Source: a virus. From it: DNA of 38,620 bases. Below are positions 1-12,243 of the stretch, in pieces. Location of the stretch: IMG/VR virus record IMGVR_UViG_3300045988_133151, positions 1 through 38,620 of that record; one strand, given 5' to 3'. The stretch's first letter is position 1; each line of letters opens with the position of its first letter. The notes beneath the pieces are model-generated. The model saw nothing but the letters and a program-made list of their open reading frames with translations, was not told the DNA's origin and made no database searches. The translations under genes and the position numbers were made by a program.

Positions 1-82
1 CCTTGTTATTGAAAAATATTAAAAATTTGAAAACTTGGTATCCTGGCGAGAGAGATAAAAAAGAAATGAAATATTTCTTTCA

Positions 83-112
83 AAATTGTATTACATGACT
101 AATACAATTTTG
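83..112. other. Perfect 13-bp inverted repeat caaaattgtatta/taatacaattttg with a 6-nt loop
   Basis: Read directly from the sequence; the arms are exact reverse complements. No flanking U-tract on either strand. Confidence 0.5.
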
Positions 113-236
113 AAATACCAAACATCTCACAATAACAAATATAACATCAAATATAACATACTTCTTAACACAAAAATATCTCACAACAACAAACACAACA
201 CTAAACATACTTTTCAACACAAAACATCTAACATCT
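113..236 (+). repeat. G-free, CA-rich low-complexity tract with degenerate direct repeats (aacatctcacaaNaacaaa; atatctcacaacaacaaacacaacac)
   Basis: There are 124 consecutive nt without a single G on the + strand; ACA/CAA-rich with degenerate repeats. A T/G-rich stretch (530-640) is partly complementary to it. Confidence 0.6.
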
Positions 237-630
237 GAAACCTATAATCCCTTGTTACCAGACCACACAAAAAACTATCTATTTCTAATCATTATATTCA
301 AACTAAACCTTTGCCTAAAATCGCTTGTACGAGCTTTTAGCACACTTGGGTATATACAGATATAGGTAAGTCCTTCCTTGCTTCTCAGCGCGTTCTAATG
401 GCCTTATATGCGATATGATATTTAGTTGTACATTGTATACATATTCTTTGTTATTATCCTTATAATCTTTGTTGAAGTTGACGTTGTTTGTCAATATGTA
501 CAAGTGCGGCCTTGTGTTGTTGTGCATGTTGACTATCTATTGTGTTATCATTATACTTATAGTATTGTGATTGATGCGGCCTTTGGTTAATGTGTTGTAT
601 TTTGTTGTTGTATTTTGTGCAAGTTGGCTA

Positions 631-658
631 TTGCTTTTTGCCGCTAATCTGATATAAT
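631..658 (+). promoter_or_regulatory. Sigma-A-type promoter TTGCTT-N16-TGaTATAAT
   Basis: Putative -35 at 631-636 and extended -10 TGaTATAAT at 650-658. It overlaps copy 1 of the ttttgtgcaaNttg...attgctttttg repeat. Confidence 0.45.
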
Positions 659-659
659 G

Positions 660-894
660 GGTACTGTCGAAAGGGCAAGGGCGAAAGCCTTTGAATAAGT
701 AGGCGTGTACCTTGATAATTAAATAGAACGGTGCAAGGCTCTATCAGAGACTATGTAATTAAGGCTATCAGATAACACGGAAGCGCGGTTATTGGATAGC
801 TGGGATAGAGCCTTGCAAAATGGGAAAAAGATTTAATAGAGTATATTAAGTAATGTAATATATTGTATTAAGTCTTTATAAGGAGGTTATAACT
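660..894 (+). promoter_or_regulatory. Structured 5' leader of the 895 gene with a long-range 13-bp stem (737-749 pairs with 803-815)
   Basis: gcaaggctctatc at 737-749 and gatagagccttgc at 803-815 are exact reverse complements. An inner imperfect inverted repeat reads gctatcagataac/gttattggatagc. The leader lies between the promoter at 631-658 and the RBS at 878-884 and contains no ORF. Confidence 0.35.
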
Positions 895-3720: not shown

Positions 3721-3859
3721 TATAATTCATTGGAAACTATACGCAGAGTGGTTAGACAACGGTAAGTTTTGTGCCGATTGTTTTATGAGCTATGATGAGC
3801 TATGGGACAGGTTGTTCAATCCTGAACTTGAGTTAATCACAATAATTGAGCGCAAGTAA
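3713..3859 (+). CDS. Small hypothetical protein (48 aa)
   Basis: The ATG at 3713 follows gaggaggaag and overlaps the upstream stop. Confidence 0.4.
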   Translation: MNDIIHWKLYAEWLDNGKFCADCFMSYDELWDRLFNPELELITIIERK

Positions 3860-3866
3860 TCATCAA

Positions 3867-3905
3867 ATATAAGCTAGGGTATTTTATCCTAGCTTATATT
3901 TTTAT
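3867..3905 (+). terminator. Rho-independent terminator (12-bp perfect stem atataagctagg/cctagcttatat, 9-nt loop, T-run)
   Basis: The stem is an exact reverse complement at 3867-3878 and 3888-3899, followed by ttttta. It lies just after the last gene of the upstream block. Confidence 0.65.
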
Positions 3906-4273
3906 ACTTATGTTTGTTATTGAATAGTATGGGAACCAGCAGGAGAAGCAGAAAAAATCTTGCACAAAAACAGTGGCGCTGACTTGTATAGTTTGTATAG
4001 AAAACGCTTCTAGCACTTTTTGAATATAGTTATAGCGGGGCAGTGTAAAAGCGCTTAGAGGCCATTCTCGCGGCAATTAGGACTATATACAGTTTGTAAT
4101 TGATTTTGAATACAGTGAGTTATAGAAGTGTTGTGCAAATTGTATAGTTTAGGAATGAAATTTTATATTATTTTGTGCAAATTTTATATAGACTTTTGGC
4201 GGCAAAAAGGCGTATAATAGGGGTACAACAAAGGAAGGGCAACGCCAAAAAGGTGTTGAAAGGTATGTTTGTT

Positions 4274-4468
4274 ATGAAAAAATATAAGGTTTATGACCTA
4301 TATGAAGGTAAGGATGTTGTAGGCTATGCCGATACATTGAATGAGGTGAAACGCCTTGCTAGGGAATGGTTTCGCGATACAGACGGTGAGTGTTGCATGG
4401 TATATGCAGAACTGAACCCCAAAACCAAAAAATATCGGTTTAGTCAATATAAGCCGGTAAAGTTTTAA
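4274..4468 (+). CDS. Small hypothetical protein (64 aa)
   Basis: The ATG at 4274 (MKKYKVYDLY...) lies 12 nt after gaaagg. It is the only plausible ORF in the 3860-5950 region. Confidence 0.4.
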   Translation: MKKYKVYDLYEGKDVVGYADTLNEVKRLAREWFRDTDGECCMVYAELNPKTKKYRFSQYKPVKF

Positions 4469-4480
4469 TTAGAAAATGGA

Positions 4481-4545
4481 ATAATCGAAACGGGGAACGT
4501 TCCCCGTCTGCCGTGGGGTAGCTTCCCGGCACTGACGAGATAGGC
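4481..4545 (+). ncRNA. Candidate type II hammerhead ribozyme (GAAA - stem III hairpin - UC cleavage site - stem I hairpin - CUGACGA)
   Basis: The full core is present in the correct order: GAAA at 4487-4490; stem III cggggaacgttccccg at 4491-4506; U16.1 at 4507 able to pair with A15.1 at 4490; C17 at 4508; stem I tgccg...cggca at 4509-4513/4527-4531; CUGACGA at 4532-4538; G10.1 at 4539 facing C11.1 at 4486. Stem II is only 3 bp (gat/atc) plus possible wobbles, which is the weak point. Confidence 0.35.
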
Positions 4546-4792
4546 TAGTGGGGCTTTTTCTTTTGTCTTTATATTTGTTAATAACAACTATATCAATCTG
4601 CATCTGGCACTATATAACACTGTCCAGCATCTTAAAACAAGGCGCTAAAATCGTCTGTACTGCGTTATAATGTATTGAGTAGGGTAGTTATAGCACTGGT
4701 GCAAAGTGGGCCTTGTGGCGCGTTCTGGAGGCCGTCAGGAGGTATTGTACAAATTGCATAAAAAAGCAAAATAATTTTGTGCAATTTGATTA

Positions 4793-4821
4793 TTGCTTTT
4801 TGTCCTGATTTTTGGTAAAAT
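4793..4821 (+). promoter_or_regulatory. Promoter TTGCTT-N17-TGgTAAAAT inside repeat copy 2, overlapped by an inverted repeat caaattgca/tgcaatttg (4750-4788)
   Basis: -35 at 4793-4798 and extended -10 at 4813-4821. No ORF follows for about 1.1 kb. Confidence 0.4.
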
Positions 4822-5176
4822 ACTTATAGAAAATAAGAAAGGGGGTAAAAAGAAAATAAGGGAGACTGCTTCACAGTGCAAGAGGCAGGGGTAGTTCTGA
4901 GAAAGCCTGGAAGTGAGTAGAGGGAAAGCGCGGGGAGGTTGGTATGATTTCCTAGTTGGTTAGTAGGTTTGACGCATTAATCTGTATCAATGCGCCAGCA
5001 AAAACCGATACTGCACCGCTCAGACCTGCGAGAATGGGCCTAGAAAAAATCCTAGCATTAAACAGGTCAAACTATACCGCTTTACAATGTGGGCCTTACA
5101 ACGCATTTTAGATAGGTCACAGAGGGTCTTGTGCAAAATAGTCAAAAAAATAATATAATTTTGTGCAACTTGCTAA

Positions 5177-5205
5177 TGGACAAGCAGGTAGATTTTTGAT
5201 AAAAT
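5177..5205 (+). promoter_or_regulatory. Promoter TGGACA-N17-TGaTAAAAT inside repeat copy 3
   Basis: -35 at 5177-5182 and extended -10 at 5197-5205. Confidence 0.4.
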
Positions 5206-5206
5206 T

Positions 5207-5301
5207 GTGCTAGGGTGGTTGACTTATACCCTTTTTTATGTTATTATAGCCTTGCAAATCAGGGACGGAAAAAACCGGTTTGATTGCAAGGCTTGTTTTT
5301 T
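5207..5301 (+). ncRNA. Candidate small RNA or attenuator: a promoter-proximal ~90-nt transcript ending at a strong terminator
   Basis: A putative transcription start near 5210 is followed by a small hairpin (agggt...accct) and then a 12-bp stem agccttgcaaatc/gattgcaaggct at 5248-5293 plus a T-run at 5296-5301. No ORF lies between the promoter and the terminator. Confidence 0.3.
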
Positions 5302-5319
5302 AAGAAAAATTTGTTATTG

Positions 5320-5650
5320 GTTAGCATAGTAACAAAAATATCTTTTGAGAACAAGTGTGAACCTTGAAAAATAGTGGTGGATTGCTAAACACCCAATAAA
5401 GTATAACTTTTATTGAAAAGTATGCAGTTGAAATGGTTCGATGGCAAATATTTTTTATTGAATGGCATTTTTTAAGTTCGATATTTGGTGATAAAAGATA
5501 TTTTTCGCTGGAGTTATTTGTTTTCGTGATAACAAATATTTGTTGTACAAAATGCACAAATTAGGTATTTGTCATTAACAAATATCTTTCAATGATTGAT
5601 ACTTGTTTTTGAAAAATGTTTGGTTTTGGCTGATATTTGTCATTGTCGAA
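5320..5650. promoter_or_regulatory. AT-rich cluster of palindromic ACAAATAT/ATATTTGT sites, including a perfect 14-bp palindrome aacaaatatttgtt near 5528
   Basis: At least 7 occurrences of the caaatat/atatttg half-site in both orientations (around 5335, 5445, 5480, 5493, 5528, 5565-5580, 5630). This looks like an operator array or origin. Confidence 0.4.
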
Positions 5651-5951
5651 TCGGGTTCGCGTTTGTGCGGATTATGCGTCGCCAATTTTTTCCCCAGGAA
5701 ATTCAAAAATTCCCCCAGATATATGTACGATATACATACATTCATACATCATATAGTGTATGATTAGTTAATGATTAGAATAATAATTATTGTATTTGTA
5801 GTCAGTGAATGTTGGCCTCGCGCACATTACGCGAAACTTAAAAAATCGCCCACAAGTATATAACAAAAACGCTGTAGCTCCCAAAATAACTGGTTAATTC
5901 AGCGCTTCATCGGAAGATGATAATATTACTATAATATAAGGAGACGATGCT

Positions 5952-6389
5952 ATGAAAATCGAAAACAAAGAACAGTTCAATGAATACATTGATACATTAA
6001 ACAGACGCGGTGCCAAATTTGATTTTGATTGCTGTGAAGTAATTCTATTAAATGACACAATACTTATGCGAGATAAAAGCACTGCGAAACGTTTTCTTGT
6101 GGATACACGAACGGGAGATTGCTTTTGGGTTTACAATGAAAATGAAGAAGTACACAAAGATAATGTGCTTTTAGAAAATGAAAGTGAGGCATGGGCAACG
6201 ATTGAAATTCGTCAAGCTTGCCTCAATTTGCCTAAATACAAAGCGGAAAAAGTAATGCGAGTGCTTGAAGATAAAGACGGTGATGGCATTGTTTTTACTC
6301 CACCTTCTGAAGTTGGGTATTGGGAAAAGTATTTAGATTGGCAAAAGCAAGTTATGTGTGGTGAAATGCCTTGCAATAGTACAAAATAA
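5952..6389 (+). CDS. Hypothetical protein (145 aa)
   Basis: The RBS taaggag precedes the ATG at 5952. The block 5950-10100 is AT-rich. Confidence 0.55.
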   Translation: MKIENKEQFNEYIDTLNRRGAKFDFDCCEVILLNDTILMRDKSTAKRFLVDTRTGDCFWVYNENEEVHKDNVLLENESEAWATIEIRQACLNLPKYKAEKVMRVLEDKDGDGIVFTPPSEVGYWEKYLDWQKQVMCGEMPCNSTK

Positions 6390-6428: not shown

Positions 6429-6457
6429 TTGACAATGCTATTTCGCTATGCTATAAT
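6429..6457 (+). promoter_or_regulatory. Promoter TTGACA-N17-TGcTATAAT
   Basis: Consensus -35 at 6429-6434 and extended -10 at 6449-6457, upstream of the 6487 gene. Confidence 0.55.
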
Positions 6458-6753: not shown

Positions 6754-6766
6754 AATCCTTATGGGT

Positions 6767-7061
6767 GAGCCAGAAAATTTGATTTTATTTTTCTATTGAG
6801 AAAACAAGTCAAAAATCTTGTCGCCAAAACCCCCCCCTTCACGAGCCAGAAAATTCAAATCGAAAATCGAGGCTGAGATTCACAATTAGATTTGCTACCG
6901 CCAAAACCATCCCTTGGAAGGAATTGGAAAATTTGATTTTGTTTTTGAGTTTCGGATTTTGATTTGACTTTCTCGCCGCCAAAACTACCCCTATTAAATA
7001 AAAACAGAAAACTTGTTAATAAATGACAAAAATGCTTTGACGAGTCAGAAAATTTGATTTT
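6767..7061. repeat. Iteron-like array: four imperfect direct repeats (three with a 76-bp period, at 6767, 6843 and 6919, plus a fourth at 7042)
   Basis: Each unit begins (g)agccagaaaatttgatttt or a variant and ends with cgccaaaac(c/t)(a)cccc. A C7 run lies at 6831-6837. The array is non-coding and lies between the 6487 gene and the promoter at 7153. Confidence 0.6.
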
Positions 7062-7152
7062 AAAAACGAGTTTCCCGTTTTTATTTGTAGGAGTTTAGTT
7101 TCGATTGTAGCTTCGAGCGGACAAAGTTCTGAAAAATTTTTTCAAAAACCTA

Positions 7153-8979: not shown

Positions 8980-10083
8980 ATGTTTAAAGCGTATAAATAT
9001 CGCTTGTATCCTAATAAGGAACAACAAAAATATTTTGCAAAATGTTTTGGATGTGTACGATTCATCTATAATCGTATGCTTTTAGATAAGATTGAGTATT
9101 ACAAAGAAACAAAACAAAAATTGAATAATACACCTGCTCAATATAAAAAAGAATTTCCTTGGTTGAAAGAAGTAGGTTCTCTTGCATTAGCAAATGCTCA
9201 GATGAATTTACAGGCAGCTTACAATAACTTCTTCAAAAGACCAGAAGTAGGATTTCCAAAATTCAAAAGTAAGAAAAATCATAATTGCTCTTATACTACT
9301 AATAATAAAAGTGGAACTATTTATGTAACTGATAAACACATTAGATTGCCTAAGATTGGCTTAATTAAAATAAAGAAACATAGAGACTTTGCAGGGTTGA
9401 TTAAGTCGGCTACTATTTCGCAAAAACCTTCTGGCAAATATTATGTATCTATTTTGGTTGACCAAAAAGATAAAGAAAAATTGCCTATGAATAATAATGA
9501 GATAGGAGTTGACCTTGGGCTTAAAGAATTTTGTATTACTTCTAACGGTGAAATGGTTAAAAATCCTAAATATTTAAAAAAATCTGAAAAACGATTAAGA
9601 AAGTTACAAAAAGATTTGTCTCGCTGTAAAAAAGAAAGTAAGAATAGAGAAAAATGCAGAGTTAAGGTTGCAAAACAACATGAAAAAATTGCGAATCAAA
9701 GAAAAGATTTTTTACATAAACTTTCTAAAAGATTGATTAACGAAAATCAAGTTATTTGTCTTGAGGATTTAAAAGTAAAAAATATGATGAGTAATCATAA
9801 ATTAGCAAAATCAATAGCAGATGTATCTTGGAGTGAATTTGTAAGGCAATTAGAATATAAAGCTGATTGGTATGGACGAGAGATTATTAAGATTGATACT
9901 TGGTATCCTTCTAGTCAGATATGTTCTAATTGCGGTCACAAAGATGGGAAGAAAGCATTATCAATAAGAGAATGGACTTGCTCTGTTTGTGGAACACATC
10001 ACGAAAGAGATATAAATGCAGCAATAAATATTCTCAATGAAGGTTTGAGAATGAAAACCGTAGGAACTACGGTGTTAGCCTAA
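8980..10083 (+). CDS. tnpB: TnpB (IS605 OrfB-family RNA-guided nuclease), 367 aa
   Basis: The N-terminus [15 protein letters not shown]...FGCVRFIYN is characteristic. The RuvC-like region contains [10 protein letters not shown], and the zinc finger is CSNCG...CSVCG. The RBS aaggaag precedes the ATG at 8980. Confidence 0.85.
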
Positions 10084-11406: not shown

Positions 11407-12243
11407 ATGTTGAAGCAGTATGAAGCTTATCTAAAAGCAGAACATAGAAGCCAGCGGACGATTGATTCTTATCTTGACACTTGTGCTAAGATGATGAACT
11501 ATATTAGCAAGAAAGTAAGCGATGTTACTTATGCTGACTTAATGGAATGGAAAGGCACTTTAGCAAATTTAAGTCCTTCTAGCGTAAATCAGAAGACTGC
11601 GGCAATTAAGAACTTTTTCTCTTGGTGTCAGTTTATGGGATATACTGAAAGCAATCCTGCGGCTGATATGAAGCGTCTGAGAGCAAATCCTAAAGAAAGC
11701 ATTTATATAGGCGCAGAAGAGATTGAAGCATTTCTGGGTGCTTGTAGAAGTATCAGAGATAAAGCTATGCTAACTGTCATGGTGAAAACAGGTGTTCGTC
11801 AGCACGAACTCGCGAGTCTCACAATTTACGAATACTTCAAGATGAGAAATGAAGGCTCTAATTTTTTAGTAATTGTTGGTAAAGGAAACAAGGAACGTAA
11901 GATTTACTTCAGTGATGAAGTTATGGATTTAGTTGATGAGTACGTCATTTGGAGAAATAACCATGCTGTCAATAGCGACCGGTTATTCTTGACCTTTGCA
12001 GGATTGCCGCTTAATGATTCTGGTATGAACAGAGTTATTAAGAATACAGCCAAAAGAGCTGGACTTGCAAACGCTGAAGAGTACACTTGTCATTCGTTAA
12101 GAAGGGCTTTTGCTACTATTAAATCAAACAATAATGTCCCTATTGCTATTATTGGTAAAGCGTTGGGTCATTCTAATATTGCAACAACCACAAGATACAT
12201 TGAGACTAACGACGAGCTTATTGAAGCCGCCATGACAATGTAA
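11407..12243 (+). CDS. int: Tyrosine recombinase/integrase, XerC/D-like (278 aa)
   Basis: An N-terminal core-binding-like domain is followed by a catalytic domain with R (VRQHELASL region), H-x-x-R (CHSLRRAFAT) and HSNIATTTRYIE carrying the catalytic Tyr. The RBS aaagggggat precedes the ATG. Confidence 0.85.
   Translation: MLKQYEAYLKAEHRSQRTIDSYLDTCAKMMNYISKKVSDVTYADLMEWKGTLANLSPSSVNQKTAAIKNFFSWCQFMGYTESNPAADMKRLRANPKESIYIGAEEIEAFLGACRSIRDKAMLTVMVKTGVRQHELASLTIYEYFKMRNEGSNFLVIVGKGNKERKIYFSDEVMDLVDEYVIWRNNHAVNSDRLFLTFAGLPLNDSGMNRVIKNTAKRAGLANAEEYTCHSLRRAFATIKSNNNVPIAIIGKALGHSNIATTTRYIETNDELIEAAMTM

What the first reader, a model, noticed from the sequence alone, without database searches (positions are those of the whole stretch)
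3860..5950. A ~2.1-kb almost ORF-free region with triplicated promoter modules and candidate ncRNAs
Between the terminator at 3867-3905 and the gene at 5952 there is a single 64-aa ORF. This is extremely low coding density for a phage. The region carries three copies of a repeat ending in ttttgtgcaaNttg...attgctttttg (about 608-645, 4775-4812, 5148-5180), and each copy overlaps a plausible promoter. Two of them are preceded by a ~130-bp homologous module (314-405 and 4640-4745) that shares ctaaaatcgNctgtac and gcgcgttctNNNggcc. A third, partial copy lies at about 5088-5140 and shares only gtgggcctt with the 4640-4745 copy. The 4793 promoter would drive a ~300-nt purine-rich transcript (4830-5130) with no ORF. 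The 5177 promoter drives a ~90-nt unit closed by a strong terminator (5248-5301). An AT-rich palindrome cluster (ACAAATAT|ATATTTGT, 5320-5650) follows. Together this looks like a regulatory or ncRNA hub, or an origin.
Basis: seen in the sequence. Interest (0 to 1): 0.6.

Follow-up and report, generated by a model that had tools for sequence, protein, structure and literature searches.

The report
Gene-poor phage early-promoter array with hammerhead ribozyme
This stretch is the variable early-gene control region of a large gut phage: four related promoter modules, one small gene ending in a self-cutting hammerhead RNA, two back-to-back transcription stops and a conserved cluster of likely protein-binding sites. 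It looks empty because this genome lacks the small gene cassettes its relatives carry here, so it is interesting but mostly of known kinds.

Summary
Window 3860-5950 has one credible gene, 4274-4468 (64 aa). The repeated promoter modules, the strong terminator and the palindrome cluster are all real.

- A fourth promoter copy, with its box at 4173.
- A type II hammerhead ribozyme at 4483-4549 (Rfam 47.2 bits, cut-off 37), directly after the small gene.

Thirteen related loci (~120-kb SPbeta-like gut phage lineage) show a mosaic slot array. The gap between the upstream terminator and the 145-aa gene is 1.7-3.6 kb and holds 1-6 small ORFs.
- The window lacks the cistron that follows the hammerhead in L002 and L004; a half-terminator scar marks the spot.
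- It also lacks a whole promoter-gene-terminator cassette at 4945-4980.
- So the "300-nt purine-rich ncRNA" is a conserved promoter leader joined to the next module, not an RNA gene. It is unstructured (z +0.5).

Block 4981-5951 is colinear in 11 relatives and more conserved than the adjacent gene (91% against 87% mean pairwise identity), with no conserved ORF. The only significant structures are the tandem terminators and strand-symmetric palindromes, which points to DNA-level sites.

Verdict: a regulatory promoter array with a known ribozyme class. The ncRNA-hub reading is mostly unsupported. An origin is neither shown nor excluded.

The parts
3865..3901 (+). Intrinsic terminator closing the upstream small-gene operon (17-bp stem followed by a T-rich tail).
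   Evidence: I20. The alignment fold gives z -4.9. Near-identical in relatives.
3902..4130 (+). Upstream module U2 of promoter P2. Non-coding, and carries an inverted TTGTGCAA box at 3960-3967.
   Evidence: Highly conserved in six relatives (few substitutions in the alignment). No significant RNA structure. No protein similarity.
4131..4218 (+). Promoter P2: distal box TTGTGCAAATTGTATAG (4131), proximal box TTGTGCAAATTTTATAT (4173), -35 TAGACT at 4189-4194, -10 TATAAT at 4213-4218.
   Evidence: (D5, D19).
4274..4468 (+). The only credible gene in the region: 64 aa, function unknown.
   Evidence: Matches phrog_24326 at E 5e-7. 97% identical in L002 and 64-66% in unrelated ~39-kb phage contigs.
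4483..4549 (+). Type II hammerhead self-cleaving ribozyme. Predicted cut between C4508 and U4509. The stem I loop UAGCU pairs with the 3' tail GGCUA as a pseudoknot.
   Evidence: Rfam RF02276 at 47.2 bits against a cut-off of 37, full length. The L002 copy keeps stems I and III through double changes, and its loop change UAGCU to UGGCC still pairs with the tail.
4551..4566 (+). Deletion scar: only the 3' half of a terminator (GGGCTTTTTCTTTT) remains. The cistron that follows the hammerhead in L002 and L004, and the 5' half of its terminator, are missing.
4567..4744 (+). Upstream module U3, a paralogue of 314-405 and of 5040-5128.
   Evidence: No significant RNA structure.
4745..4821 (+). Promoter P3: distal box TTGTACAAATTGCATAA (4745), proximal box TTGTGCAATTTGATTAT (4777), -35 TTGCTT at 4793-4798, TGg plus -10 TAAAAT at 4816-4821.
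   Evidence: (D5, D6). Nearly invariant in the seven relatives that carry it.
4828..4944 (+). Purine-rich leader of P3. It has a strong Shine-Dalgarno-like site at 4836-4847 near the predicted 5' end and one small hairpin at 4866-4888.
   Evidence: 90-93% conserved. Not coding, because L003 has a 1-nt indel. Unstructured, z +0.54. Anti-SD duplex -16.4 kcal/mol. L005 lacks 4828-4850.
4945..4980 (+). Empty cassette slot. The seven relatives compared across this junction insert 302-595 nt here, holding a sigma-A promoter, a ~58-75-aa Cys-rich gene (five of the seven) and a terminator.
   Evidence: L002 and L008 have promoter followed directly by terminator, with the gene missing.
4981..5128 (+). 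Upstream module U4. It marks the start of the block that is colinear in 11 relatives.
   Evidence: 87.5% mean pairwise identity.
5129..5205 (+). Promoter P4: distal box at 5129, proximal box TTGTGCAACTTGCTAAT at 5161, -35 TGGACA at 5177-5182, TGa plus -10 TAAAAT at 5200-5205.
   Evidence: D6. Segment 5129-5247 is one of the best-conserved parts of the block, at 94.7%.
5213..5240 (+). Hairpin T1 (AGGGTG...CACCCT) followed by T6, starting at about +2 of the P4 transcript. Its loop holds the -35 of promoter P5.
   Evidence: An extra pair is gained through a double change in L004, L005 and L007.
5219..5247 (+). Promoter-like site P5 (TTGACT, 17 nt, TATTAT) nested between T1 and T2.
   Evidence: 10 of 12 matches, with TG. 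Conserved.
5248..5301 (+). Strong intrinsic terminator T2.
   Evidence: z -3.6. 10 basal pairs are kept in 11 genomes with 1 compensatory pair, while the apical part varies by indels.
5302..5700 (.). AT-rich cluster of inverted repeats. It includes TTTGTTA-N13-TAACAAA (5311-5337), six ACAAATA/TATTTGT sites (5515-5640) and TTGTACAA/TTGTGCAT boxes (5543-5560).
   Evidence: Segment 5491-5640 is 94.3% conserved. It folds on both strands, with z -2.9 on + and -3.7 to -4.3 on -, which indicates DNA symmetry.
5701..5951 (+). Conserved non-coding run up to the 145-aa gene. A possible extended -10 (TGATAATAT, 5918-5926) and the RBS AAGGAG lie at its end.
   Evidence: 92-96% identity. The promoter call is inference from the sequence.
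612..658 (+). Promoter P1, a paralogue that lies outside the finding: box at 615, -35 TTGCTT at 631-636, TGa plus -10 TATAAT at 653-658.
   Evidence: (D5).

Best explanation
The region is the variable early-gene control region of a ~120-kb SPbeta-like phage of gut Firmicutes. It is built as an array of expression slots.

Structure of a slot:
- About 150-250 bp of paralogous upstream sequence.
- One or two 17-bp boxes (TTGTGCAAnTTGnnWAT), with the proximal box at a fixed distance from the promoter.
- A sigma-A-type promoter with a mediocre -35 and, in three of the four, an extended -10.
- Downstream, one or a few tiny orphan genes, closed by a self-cleaving ribozyme and/or an intrinsic terminator.

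State of this genome: slot 2 keeps only the 64-aa gene and its hammerhead, and slot 3 is empty.

Inferred mechanism:
- Host RNA polymerase fires rightward from P2, P3 and P4.
- An unidentified sequence-specific protein reads the boxes and switches the whole promoter class together.
- The hammerhead cuts the P2 transcript 40 nt after the stop codon. The mRNA then ends in the stem III hairpin with a 2',3'-cyclic phosphate, and the downstream RNA carries a 5'-OH.
- The P3 leader supplies a ribosome-binding, stabiliser-like 5' end to whatever cassette sits behind it.
- The tandem terminators T1 and T2 stop everything coming from the slots. P5, nested between them, may restart transcription with a truncated, non-terminating T2 stem.
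- The conserved 5302-5950 stretch acts as DNA, as an array of binding sites for a regulator or replication protein.

Shown here: the anatomy, the paralogy, the conservation, the mosaic comparison and the ribozyme assignment. Inferred: promoter use, the existence and identity of the box-binding protein, the insulator logic and the stabiliser role.
For: Context:
- The replication genes resemble Enterocloster and SPbeta phages: helicase 37% and 29% identical, YorF, DNA polymerase III alpha, RecJ-like.
- Sigma-A consensus promoters with 11-12 of 12 matches lie at 6429, 7153 and 7777.

Promoter class:
- The box-to-(-35) distance is identical in all four promoters.
- The box is enriched and restricted to these gaps.

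Mosaic comparison:
- The gap runs from 1658 nt (L007, 1 ORF) to 3594 nt (L002, 6 ORFs), with break points at 4179-4287, 4548-4551 and 4945-4980.
- The half-terminator scar is seen.

Ribozyme:
-.
- Homologues of the same 64-aa gene in other phages are followed 2 nt after the stop codon by a twister-P5 ribozyme instead. What is selected is therefore a self-cleaving site after this gene.
- Relatives carry further twister-P5 ribozymes after small ORFs.

Non-coding block:
- Mean pairwise identity is 91.2%, against 86.7% for the adjacent gene. It stays at 89-92% where the gene falls to 79-85%.
- Indels of 1-2 nt occur throughout, and ORFs are not kept.
- Alignment-fold z-scores are significant only for T1/T2 and for the palindromes, the latter on both strands.

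Leader: a strong SD-like site lies about +9 to +20 from the predicted start.
Against: - No transcript data exist. All promoters are consensus matches, and the scan finds 39 such sites in 8 kb against 25 expected.
- No DNA-binding protein was identified. Every neighbouring small protein is an orphan, and the model of the 145-aa protein was too poor to use (pLDDT 48).
- L005 lacks the SD-like part of the leader.
- The relatives are close (87-93% identity), so conservation and covariation tests have limited power.
- Whether the window lost cassette B or the others gained it is not decided.
- The role of 5302-5950 is assigned by exclusion.
Confidence: 0.6

Rival explanations
1. A non-coding-RNA hub. 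P3 makes a functional ~300-470-nt RNA (4828 to T1/T2), and P4/P5 make a small regulatory RNA (5212 or 5254 to 5301) that acts in trans.
For: - The P3 leader is 90-93% conserved.
- The P4-T1-P5-T2 unit is conserved in all 11 relatives, with compensatory changes in both hairpins, and folds well (z -3.6).
- In this genome neither transcript would contain a gene.
Against: - 4828-5000 folds no better than shuffles, and the alignment scan across the leader and junction (4790-4990) gives nothing below z -2.5.
- All seven relatives compared across the junction carry a promoter-terminator insert in the middle of this 'RNA', five of them with a gene. The 300-nt unit therefore does not exist as such elsewhere.
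- No Rfam family matches at E<=5 apart from the hammerhead.
- What is conserved in the 90-nt unit are the features of terminators: a basal stem plus a U tract, with a free apical part.
Confidence: 0.15
2. The conserved AT-rich block 5302-5950 is the replication origin, or another DNA site such as a recombination or partition site. The ACAAATA/TATTTGT repeats would act as iterons. This reading is compatible with the promoter-array reading of 3860-5301.
For: - It is more conserved than the neighbouring gene and has no ORF.
- Six ACAAATA sites lie within 125 nt and are arranged as inverted repeats.
- GC content is 32-34%.
- The symmetry is on both strands.
- The replication gene block lies downstream on the same strand.
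- A Xer-type tyrosine recombinase is encoded at 11407-12243.
Against: - There is no DnaA-box cluster.
- Cumulative GC skew rises steadily through 5.5 kb. Its minimum is near 500, in the other large gap.
- No initiator gene is adjacent.
- A separate gap at 6760-7100 with ~77-nt periodic repeats is at least as origin-like.
- The recombinase gene is 5.5 kb away.
Confidence: 0.25
3. Decayed genes: the non-coding stretches are pseudogene remains of cassette genes still intact in relatives.
For: - Relatives carry up to six small ORFs between the same flanks.
- There is one clear deletion scar at 4551-4566.
- Short stretches resembling the local gene-start module TTTGTTATGAAAAAGTAT occur at 3912, 4573 and 5567 (D1).
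Against: - blastx of the three non-coding pieces against all ORFs of the window and of 13 loci hits only chance ORFs at the same position in homologous non-coding DNA. It never hits a real cassette protein.
- The extra genes of relatives are insertions at discrete junctions, not aligned to window sequence.
- The same stretches are gene-free in all relatives.
Confidence: 0.05
4. Hidden coding: the region is translated with a reassigned stop codon, or as many micro-ORFs.
For: - Some gut phages recode TAG or TGA (general knowledge).
- A 30-aa hydrophobic ORF at 5771-5863 is intact in 9 of 10 relatives.
Against: - Reading TGA or TAG as sense gives no open frame over 122 codons.
- The two phage tRNAs are Met-CAT and Arg-GCG, with no suppressor.
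- Indels of 1-2 nt are common among relatives.
- The 30-aa ORF has no Shine-Dalgarno sequence and is disrupted in L010.
Confidence: 0.03

Closest known systems
Type II hammerhead ribozymes between small phage genes (Rfam RF02276; reviewed in PMC6155905; activity of type II examples shown in PMC8782182)
   Same: - The full catalytic core is present: CUGACGA, GAAA and a GUC cleavage triplet.
- Stem II is the open stem, and a Watson-Crick loop-tail pseudoknot is present.
- It sits directly after a small orphan ORF in a phage.
- Relatives carry twister-P5 and RAGATH-18 motifs nearby.
- All of this fits the published picture of such ribozymes flanking small non-conserved ORFs in phage DNA.
   Different: - In this genome the downstream cistron has been deleted, so the ribozyme now ends the coding part of the transcript rather than separating two cistrons.
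- Homologues of the same gene in other phages use a twister-P5 ribozyme at the same spot.
SPBRE operators and the integrase-fold repressor MrpR/YopR/SroF of Bacillus phage SPbeta (PMC10516654; bioRxiv 10.1101/2025.11.27.690993)
   Same: - It is a large SPbeta-like phage.
- It has a long non-palindromic motif repeated at several early promoters in intergenic regions. In SPbeta such a motif is read by one master regulator and co-regulates those promoters.
   Different: - The SPBRE sequence was not compared here.
- The only integrase-fold protein in the window (278 aa) looks like an ordinary Xer recombinase. By eye it keeps the catalytic Arg, Lys, His and Tyr, and it did not match MrpR in the PDB search.
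- Whether the box represses or activates is unknown.
Clustered early promoters that drive many tiny host-takeover genes, as in Bacillus phage SPO1's terminal-redundancy module or the T7 A1-A3 promoters (from my own knowledge)
   Same: - Several strong, similar host-polymerase promoters are packed into a few kb.
- Each drives short transcripts for orphan proteins of 50-150 aa.
- Gene content varies widely between relatives.
   Different: - Here the promoters carry a specific upstream box and ~150-250 bp of paralogous upstream DNA.
- Several slots are empty.
- Transcripts are bounded by ribozymes as well as terminators.
Polypurine / Shine-Dalgarno-like 5' mRNA stabilisers of Bacillus (phage SP82 early RNA, Hue et al. 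1995, as cited in PMC7509114)
   Same: The P3 leader starts with a purine-rich run. It has a very strong anti-SD match (-16.4 kcal/mol) about 10-20 nt from the predicted 5' end, with no start codon after it.
   Different: - This has not been tested.
- L005 has deleted this part.
- The host is not Bacillus.
Promoter-proximal terminators used for antitermination control, such as lambda pR'-tR' with Q (from my own knowledge)
   Same: A well-conserved promoter (P4) is followed within 30-90 nt by two intrinsic terminators, upstream of a long rightward gene block.
   Different: - No antiterminator gene was recognised.
- The downstream genes have their own consensus promoters.
- A second promoter is nested between the terminators.

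Membership tests
Hammerhead ribozyme, type II (RF02276) | Score at or above the curated Rfam gathering threshold over the full model. | tested here: met
   47.2 bits against a cut-off of 37, model positions 1-66 of 66. E is 8.8e-7 for the window and 5e-8 for the region.
Hammerhead ribozyme, type II (RF02276) | Conserved catalytic core (CUGANGA, GAAA) and an NUH cleavage triplet. | tested here: met
   CUGACGA, CGAAAC and GUC|U were read from the cmscan alignment. L002 has CUGAUGA.
Hammerhead ribozyme, type II (RF02276) | Three-stem junction with stem II open. Stems I and III are closed and supported by covariation. A loop I to 3' tail pseudoknot is present. | tested here: met
   In L002 compared with the window, stem III changes G:C to A:U, stem I changes C:G to U:A, and loop UAGCU becomes UGGCC while still pairing with GGCUA. 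Only three copies are available, so support is thin.
Hammerhead ribozyme, type II (RF02276) | Self-cleavage activity. | not testable with these tools
   Needs in vitro transcription or sequencing of 2',3'-cyclic-phosphate and 5'-OH ends.
Sigma-A (sigma-70 type) promoters | -35 and -10 hexamers 16-18 nt apart, with or without a TGn extension. | tested here: met
   P2 and P4 score 10 of 12. P1, P3 and P4 have TGn before the -10. This is a consensus match only.
Sigma-A (sigma-70 type) promoters | Mapped transcription start. | not testable with these tools
   No transcript data are available.
Intrinsic terminators | A G+C-rich hairpin directly followed by a U tract, with the stem kept in relatives. 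| tested here: met
   3865-3901 and 5248-5301. T1 at 5213-5240 has a 6-bp stem plus T6.
SPBRE/MrpR-type operator system | One long motif repeated at several early promoters of the phage. | tested here: met
   The 17-24-bp box occurs at P1-P4 with fixed geometry, plus three distal copies.
SPBRE/MrpR-type operator system | An integrase-fold repressor that has lost catalytic residues. | tested here: inconclusive
   The 278-aa protein matches XerA, XerC and XerD. By eye it keeps the R...K...HxxR...H...Y residues. No MrpR match was found. The rest of the ~120-kb genome was not examined.
SPBRE/MrpR-type operator system | Sequence similarity of the box to SPBRE. | not tested
   The SPBRE sequence appears only in a figure of PMC10516654 and was not retrieved.
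Phage or plasmid replication origin | An AT-rich region with repeated binding sites (iterons). | tested here: met
   GC is 32-34%. Six ACAAATA sites lie in 5515-5640.
Phage or plasmid replication origin | A strand-skew turn, DnaA boxes or an adjacent initiator gene. | tested here: not met
   There is no skew turn at 5.5 kb. DnaA-box matches are at chance level, with none in the region. The neighbouring proteins are orphans.
Structured non-coding RNA gene | A fold more stable than shuffles, and covariation, on one strand. | tested here: not met
   4828-5000 gives z +0.54. Scans of 3860-4225, 4551-4990 and 4981-5950 are significant only at the terminators, at the invariant P3 promoter DNA (4711-4849) and at the two-strand palindromes.

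The most novel reading that the evidence does not exclude
The TTGTGCAA-box promoters and the ~650-bp conserved ATTTGT/ACAAAT repeat field (5302-5950) would together form the control centre of a so far undescribed master-regulator system in SPbeta-like phages of gut Clostridia. It would be analogous to SPBRE/MrpR but use different sites and an unknown protein, possibly coupled to replication initiation. The nested promoter-in-terminator unit (P4-T1-P5-T2) would act as its switch.
Probability: 0.2. Interest if true: 0.55.

Novelty: new member of a known kind. Interest (0 to 1): 0.35.

Why it matters
- It shows how a seemingly empty 2 kb of phage DNA is organised: a reusable array of regulated expression slots whose gene content turns over between close relatives.
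- It gives a natural example of two different self-cleaving ribozyme classes (hammerhead II and twister-P5) occupying the same position after homologues of one small gene. This supports the view that the cleavage event itself is what is selected.
- It defines a co-regulated promoter class and a highly conserved non-coding block in an uncultured ~120-kb gut phage lineage. Both are concrete targets for finding its regulator or origin.
- None of this overturns current understanding.

Tried and rejected
- DNA search of 3860-5950 against 50,697 deposited phage genomes: no match.
- Rfam at permissive thresholds on 3800-6000 and on 1-950: nothing beyond the hammerhead.
- A 14-27-codon GTG-started peptide in the P3 leader looked as if it had synonymous changes, but L003 has a 1-nt indel inside it, so I rejected it.
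- The AUG at 4945 with a good SD sequence gives only 3 codons, and five relatives lack the AUG. I rejected it as a gene.
- Stop-codon recoding: rejected.
- Pseudogene remnants: rejected at blastx sensitivity.
- DnaA boxes: at chance level.
- Structure prediction of the adjacent 145-aa protein, to look for a DNA-binding fold, gave pLDDT 48 and was unusable. No fold search was run.
- Pfam, NCBIfam and PHROGs on the neighbouring small proteins: no functional names.
- Scan of 185,579 species genomes for a prophage copy, using the 145-aa family: nothing found, so the host was not identified.
- Viral-contig scan with the 22-nt promoter pattern: apart from three contigs of this lineage, the 79 hits look like chance matches.
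- The apparent RNA fold in 4711-4809 (z -5.7) lies in invariant promoter DNA (AAAAAGCAA...TTGCTTTTT flanking the box) and has no covariation. I do not count it as an RNA.
- The Spo0A-box look-alike TGTCGAA at 5644 is not conserved.

Full report
**What is there**

The window is phage-like, about 35% G+C, with nearly all long ORFs on the + strand. Between the terminator at 3865-3901 and the gene starting at 5952 the only credible gene is 4274-4468 (64 aa). It matches a PHROG of unknown function and has homologues in other phages. All other ORFs of 20 aa or more in 4981-5951 are either broken in relatives or lie in invariant sequence, where staying intact means nothing. Reading TGA or TAG as sense opens no long frame. 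The low coding density is therefore real.

**The repeats**

Each has the box TTGTGCAA starting exactly 16 nt before a -35-like hexamer, which is followed after 17-18 nt by a -10.

| Promoter | Box start | -35 | -10 |
|---|---|---|---|
| P1 | 615 | TTGCTT, 631 | TGaTATAAT, 653 |
| P2 | 4173 | TAGACT, 4189 | TATAAT, 4213 |
| P3 | 4777 | TTGCTT, 4793 | TGgTAAAAT, 4816 |
| P4 | 5161 | TGGACA, 5177 | TGaTAAAAT, 5200 |

- P2, P3 and P4 each carry a second, distal box 32-42 nt upstream, at 4131, 4745 and 5129.
- TTGTGCAA occurs 10 times in 38.6 kb against 3.1 expected, and six of these lie in the 2.1-kb region.
- TTGTGCAANTT occurs only at these promoters.
- In two long relative contigs (120 kb and 75 kb) the 22-nt P1/P3/P4 pattern occurs three times each.
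- The ~130-250 bp upstream of each promoter are weak paralogues of one another.
- These box promoters differ from the near-perfect sigma-A consensus promoters at 6429, 7153 and 7777, which have no box.

**The missed ribozyme**

Rfam places a type II hammerhead at 4483-4549, 14 nt after the stop codon of the 64-aa gene. It scores 47.2 bits against a gathering score of 37 and matches the full-length model.
- The core (CUGACGA, GAAA, GUC) is intact, and the predicted cut is C4508|U4509.
- The L002 copy differs by paired changes in stems I and III. Its loop I change still pairs with the unchanged 3' tail, which supports the pseudoknot.
- In two unrelated ~39-kb phage contigs, the homologue of the same 64-aa gene (64-66% identity) is followed 2 nt after its stop by a twister-P5 ribozyme. 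The next cistron's RBS comes right after that.
- Relatives of the window carry further twister-P5 ribozymes after small ORFs, and RAGATH-18 motifs.
- This matches the published pattern of hammerhead and other self-cleaving motifs flanking small, non-conserved ORFs in phage DNA (PMC6155905). Type II examples next to phage-like genes have been shown to cleave in vivo (PMC8782182).

**Comparison with relatives**

There was no DNA match among deposited phages. The 145-aa protein led to 13 loci from gut metagenomes and IMG/VR. A further contig is 99-100% identical to 4219-4980. Contigs of 120-121 kb and homologues of YorF, a DnaB-like helicase, DNA polymerase III alpha and RecJ place the lineage near Enterocloster phages and SPbeta.

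The region is a mosaic.
- The distance from the 3865-type terminator to the 145-aa gene ranges from 1658 nt with one ORF (L007) to 3594 nt with six (L002). The window has 2085 nt and one ORF.
- Break points recur at 4179-4287, 4548-4551 and 4945-4980.
- In L002 and L004 the hammerhead is followed at once by an RBS, another small cistron and a terminator. The window keeps only the 3' half of that terminator (GGGCTTTTTCTTTT, 4551-4566). This is a deletion scar.
- At 4945-4980, the seven relatives compared across the junction insert 302-595 nt. The insert carries its own consensus promoter and a terminator. Five of them also have a ~58-75-aa Cys-rich gene in it.
- In L002 and L008 that gene is missing between promoter and terminator. 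The window lacks the whole unit.

**The supposed 300-nt RNA**

P3 and its first ~115 transcribed nucleotides form a unit that is 90-93% conserved.
- It is not coding, because L003 has a 1-nt indel.
- It is not stably folded: z +0.54.
- The alignment scan over the leader and junction (4790-4990) gives nothing below z -2.5.
- It has one small hairpin (4866-4888) that is kept through a compensating change in L003.
- It has a very strong Shine-Dalgarno-like site at 4836-4847, -16.4 kcal/mol, about 10-20 nt from the predicted start.

This resembles the polypurine 5' stabiliser of phage SP82 early RNA (Hue et al. 1995, cited in PMC7509114), although L005 lacks that part. Beyond 4945 the "RNA" is simply the upstream module of P4. 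The 300-nt unit exists only because a cassette is absent here.

**The conserved block 4981-5951**

It is colinear in 11 relatives.
- Mean pairwise identity is 91.2%, against 86.7% for the DNA of the adjacent gene.
- In L003, L004 and L007 the gene drops to 79-85% while the block stays at 89-92%.
- Short indels are scattered through it.
- The best-kept parts are 5129-5247 (P4, T1, P5; 94.7%), 5491-5640 (94.3%) and 5701-5790 (95.7%).

P4 is followed at about +2 by a hairpin plus T6 (T1, 5213-5240). The loop of T1 holds the -35 of a second promoter-like site (P5, 5219-5247). P5's -10 abuts the strong terminator T2 (5248-5301). Both hairpins are kept with compensating changes, while the top of T2 varies freely, as expected for terminators.

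My reading is an insulator. T1 and T2 stop transcripts from the variable slots. RNA started at P5 (about 5254) would lack the outer 5' arm of T2, so the hairpin would no longer abut the U tract and polymerase could pass. This reading is inferred.

Downstream, alignment folding is significant only over 5493-5652, and there it is stronger on the minus strand. That fits DNA inverted repeats: six ACAAATA/TATTTGT sites, a perfect 14-bp palindrome, and a TTGTACAA/TTGTGCAT pair.

**What the block does**

I commit to DNA-level protein binding, either regulatory or replicative.
- An origin is possible but unsupported. There is no DnaA-box cluster, no skew turn at this point and no adjacent initiator. 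The gap at 6760-7100, with ~77-nt periodic repeats, is a competing candidate.
- The nearest described logic for the box promoters is SPbeta's SPBRE, a long motif at about ten early promoters bound by the integrase-fold repressor MrpR/SroF (PMC10516654; bioRxiv 10.1101/2025.11.27.690993).
- I could not show membership. The only integrase-fold protein in the window looks like a normal Xer recombinase, and the motif sequences were not compared.

**Verdict**

The "regulatory hub" reading is supported. The origin reading stays open at about one in four for the 5302-5950 part.

The parts are of known kinds: a type II hammerhead, sigma-A promoters with an upstream box, intrinsic terminators, and variable early-gene cassettes. 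What remains unexplained is the strongly conserved ~650-bp repeat field and the protein that reads the boxes.

Noticed in passing
window 660-880 (+): The leader of promoter P1 folds extremely well: -80.2 kcal/mol against -47 for shuffles, z -7.7. In 8 genomes its long hairpin (about 737-826) keeps four pairs through double compensating changes. There is no Rfam match at E<=1. L001 lacks it, and its gene follows the first domain directly. It is a candidate structured 5' leader or RNase III-type processing site.
   Followed up: partly
window 6760-7100: A 460-nt gene-free gap holds ~77-nt periodic repeats: GAGCCAGAAAATTTGATTTTA four times and TCTYGYCGCCAAAAC three times. This is an iteron-like layout and a competing origin candidate (D3/D13, 66).
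   Followed up: no
L094 3001-3255 and L095 3001-3255; window 4274-4549: Homologues of the same 64-aa gene are followed by a twister-P5 ribozyme in two ~39-kb phage contigs, but by a hammerhead II in the window, L002 and L004. The ribozyme class has been swapped at one gene's 3' end.
   Followed up: partly
L001 2013; L002 6973 and 12827; L003 4222; L005 7880; L008 1823, 9931 and 11951; L010 1801: Relatives carry twister-P5 ribozymes after other small early ORFs, and RAGATH-18 motifs. One RAGATH-18 lies just after a TnpB (IS605 OrfB) gene in L008. The window's own TnpB (8980-10083) has no RAGATH-18 hit.
   Followed up: no
window 5683-5705: In L001 and L002 a ~20-nt segment is inverted relative to the other genomes (CCCCAGG versus CTGGGG). 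This turns a direct repeat into a hairpin with CCCCCAG.
   Followed up: no
window 5771-5863 (+): There is a 30-aa ORF, MIRIIIIVFVVSECWPRAHYAKLKKSPTSI, with a hydrophobic start and a basic tail. It looks like a type I toxin and is intact in 9 of 10 relatives. However, it has no Shine-Dalgarno sequence and is disrupted in L010.
   Followed up: partly
window 2443, 3367, 3677, 4274: Several early genes share a near-identical start module, TTTGTTATGAAAAAGTAT, giving proteins that begin MKKY or MNKY. This suggests the small early genes arose by duplication or share a translation-start cassette (D1, D2).
   Followed up: no
window 1-240: This is a G-poor, C/A-rich tract (GC skew -0.27) of AACA/ACAAATAT-type repeats at the far edge of the other large gene-free gap. 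In relatives that gap is 1.6-1.8 kb and lies between leftward and rightward genes. The cumulative GC-skew minimum of the window is here.
   Followed up: no
IMG/VR contig 3300045988_123492 (L028, L034, L093): A 70-kb viral contig is 99.3-100% identical to window 4219-4980 but only ~92% identical to 1-911. It is a very close relative, or the same population with a recombinant left end.
   Followed up: no
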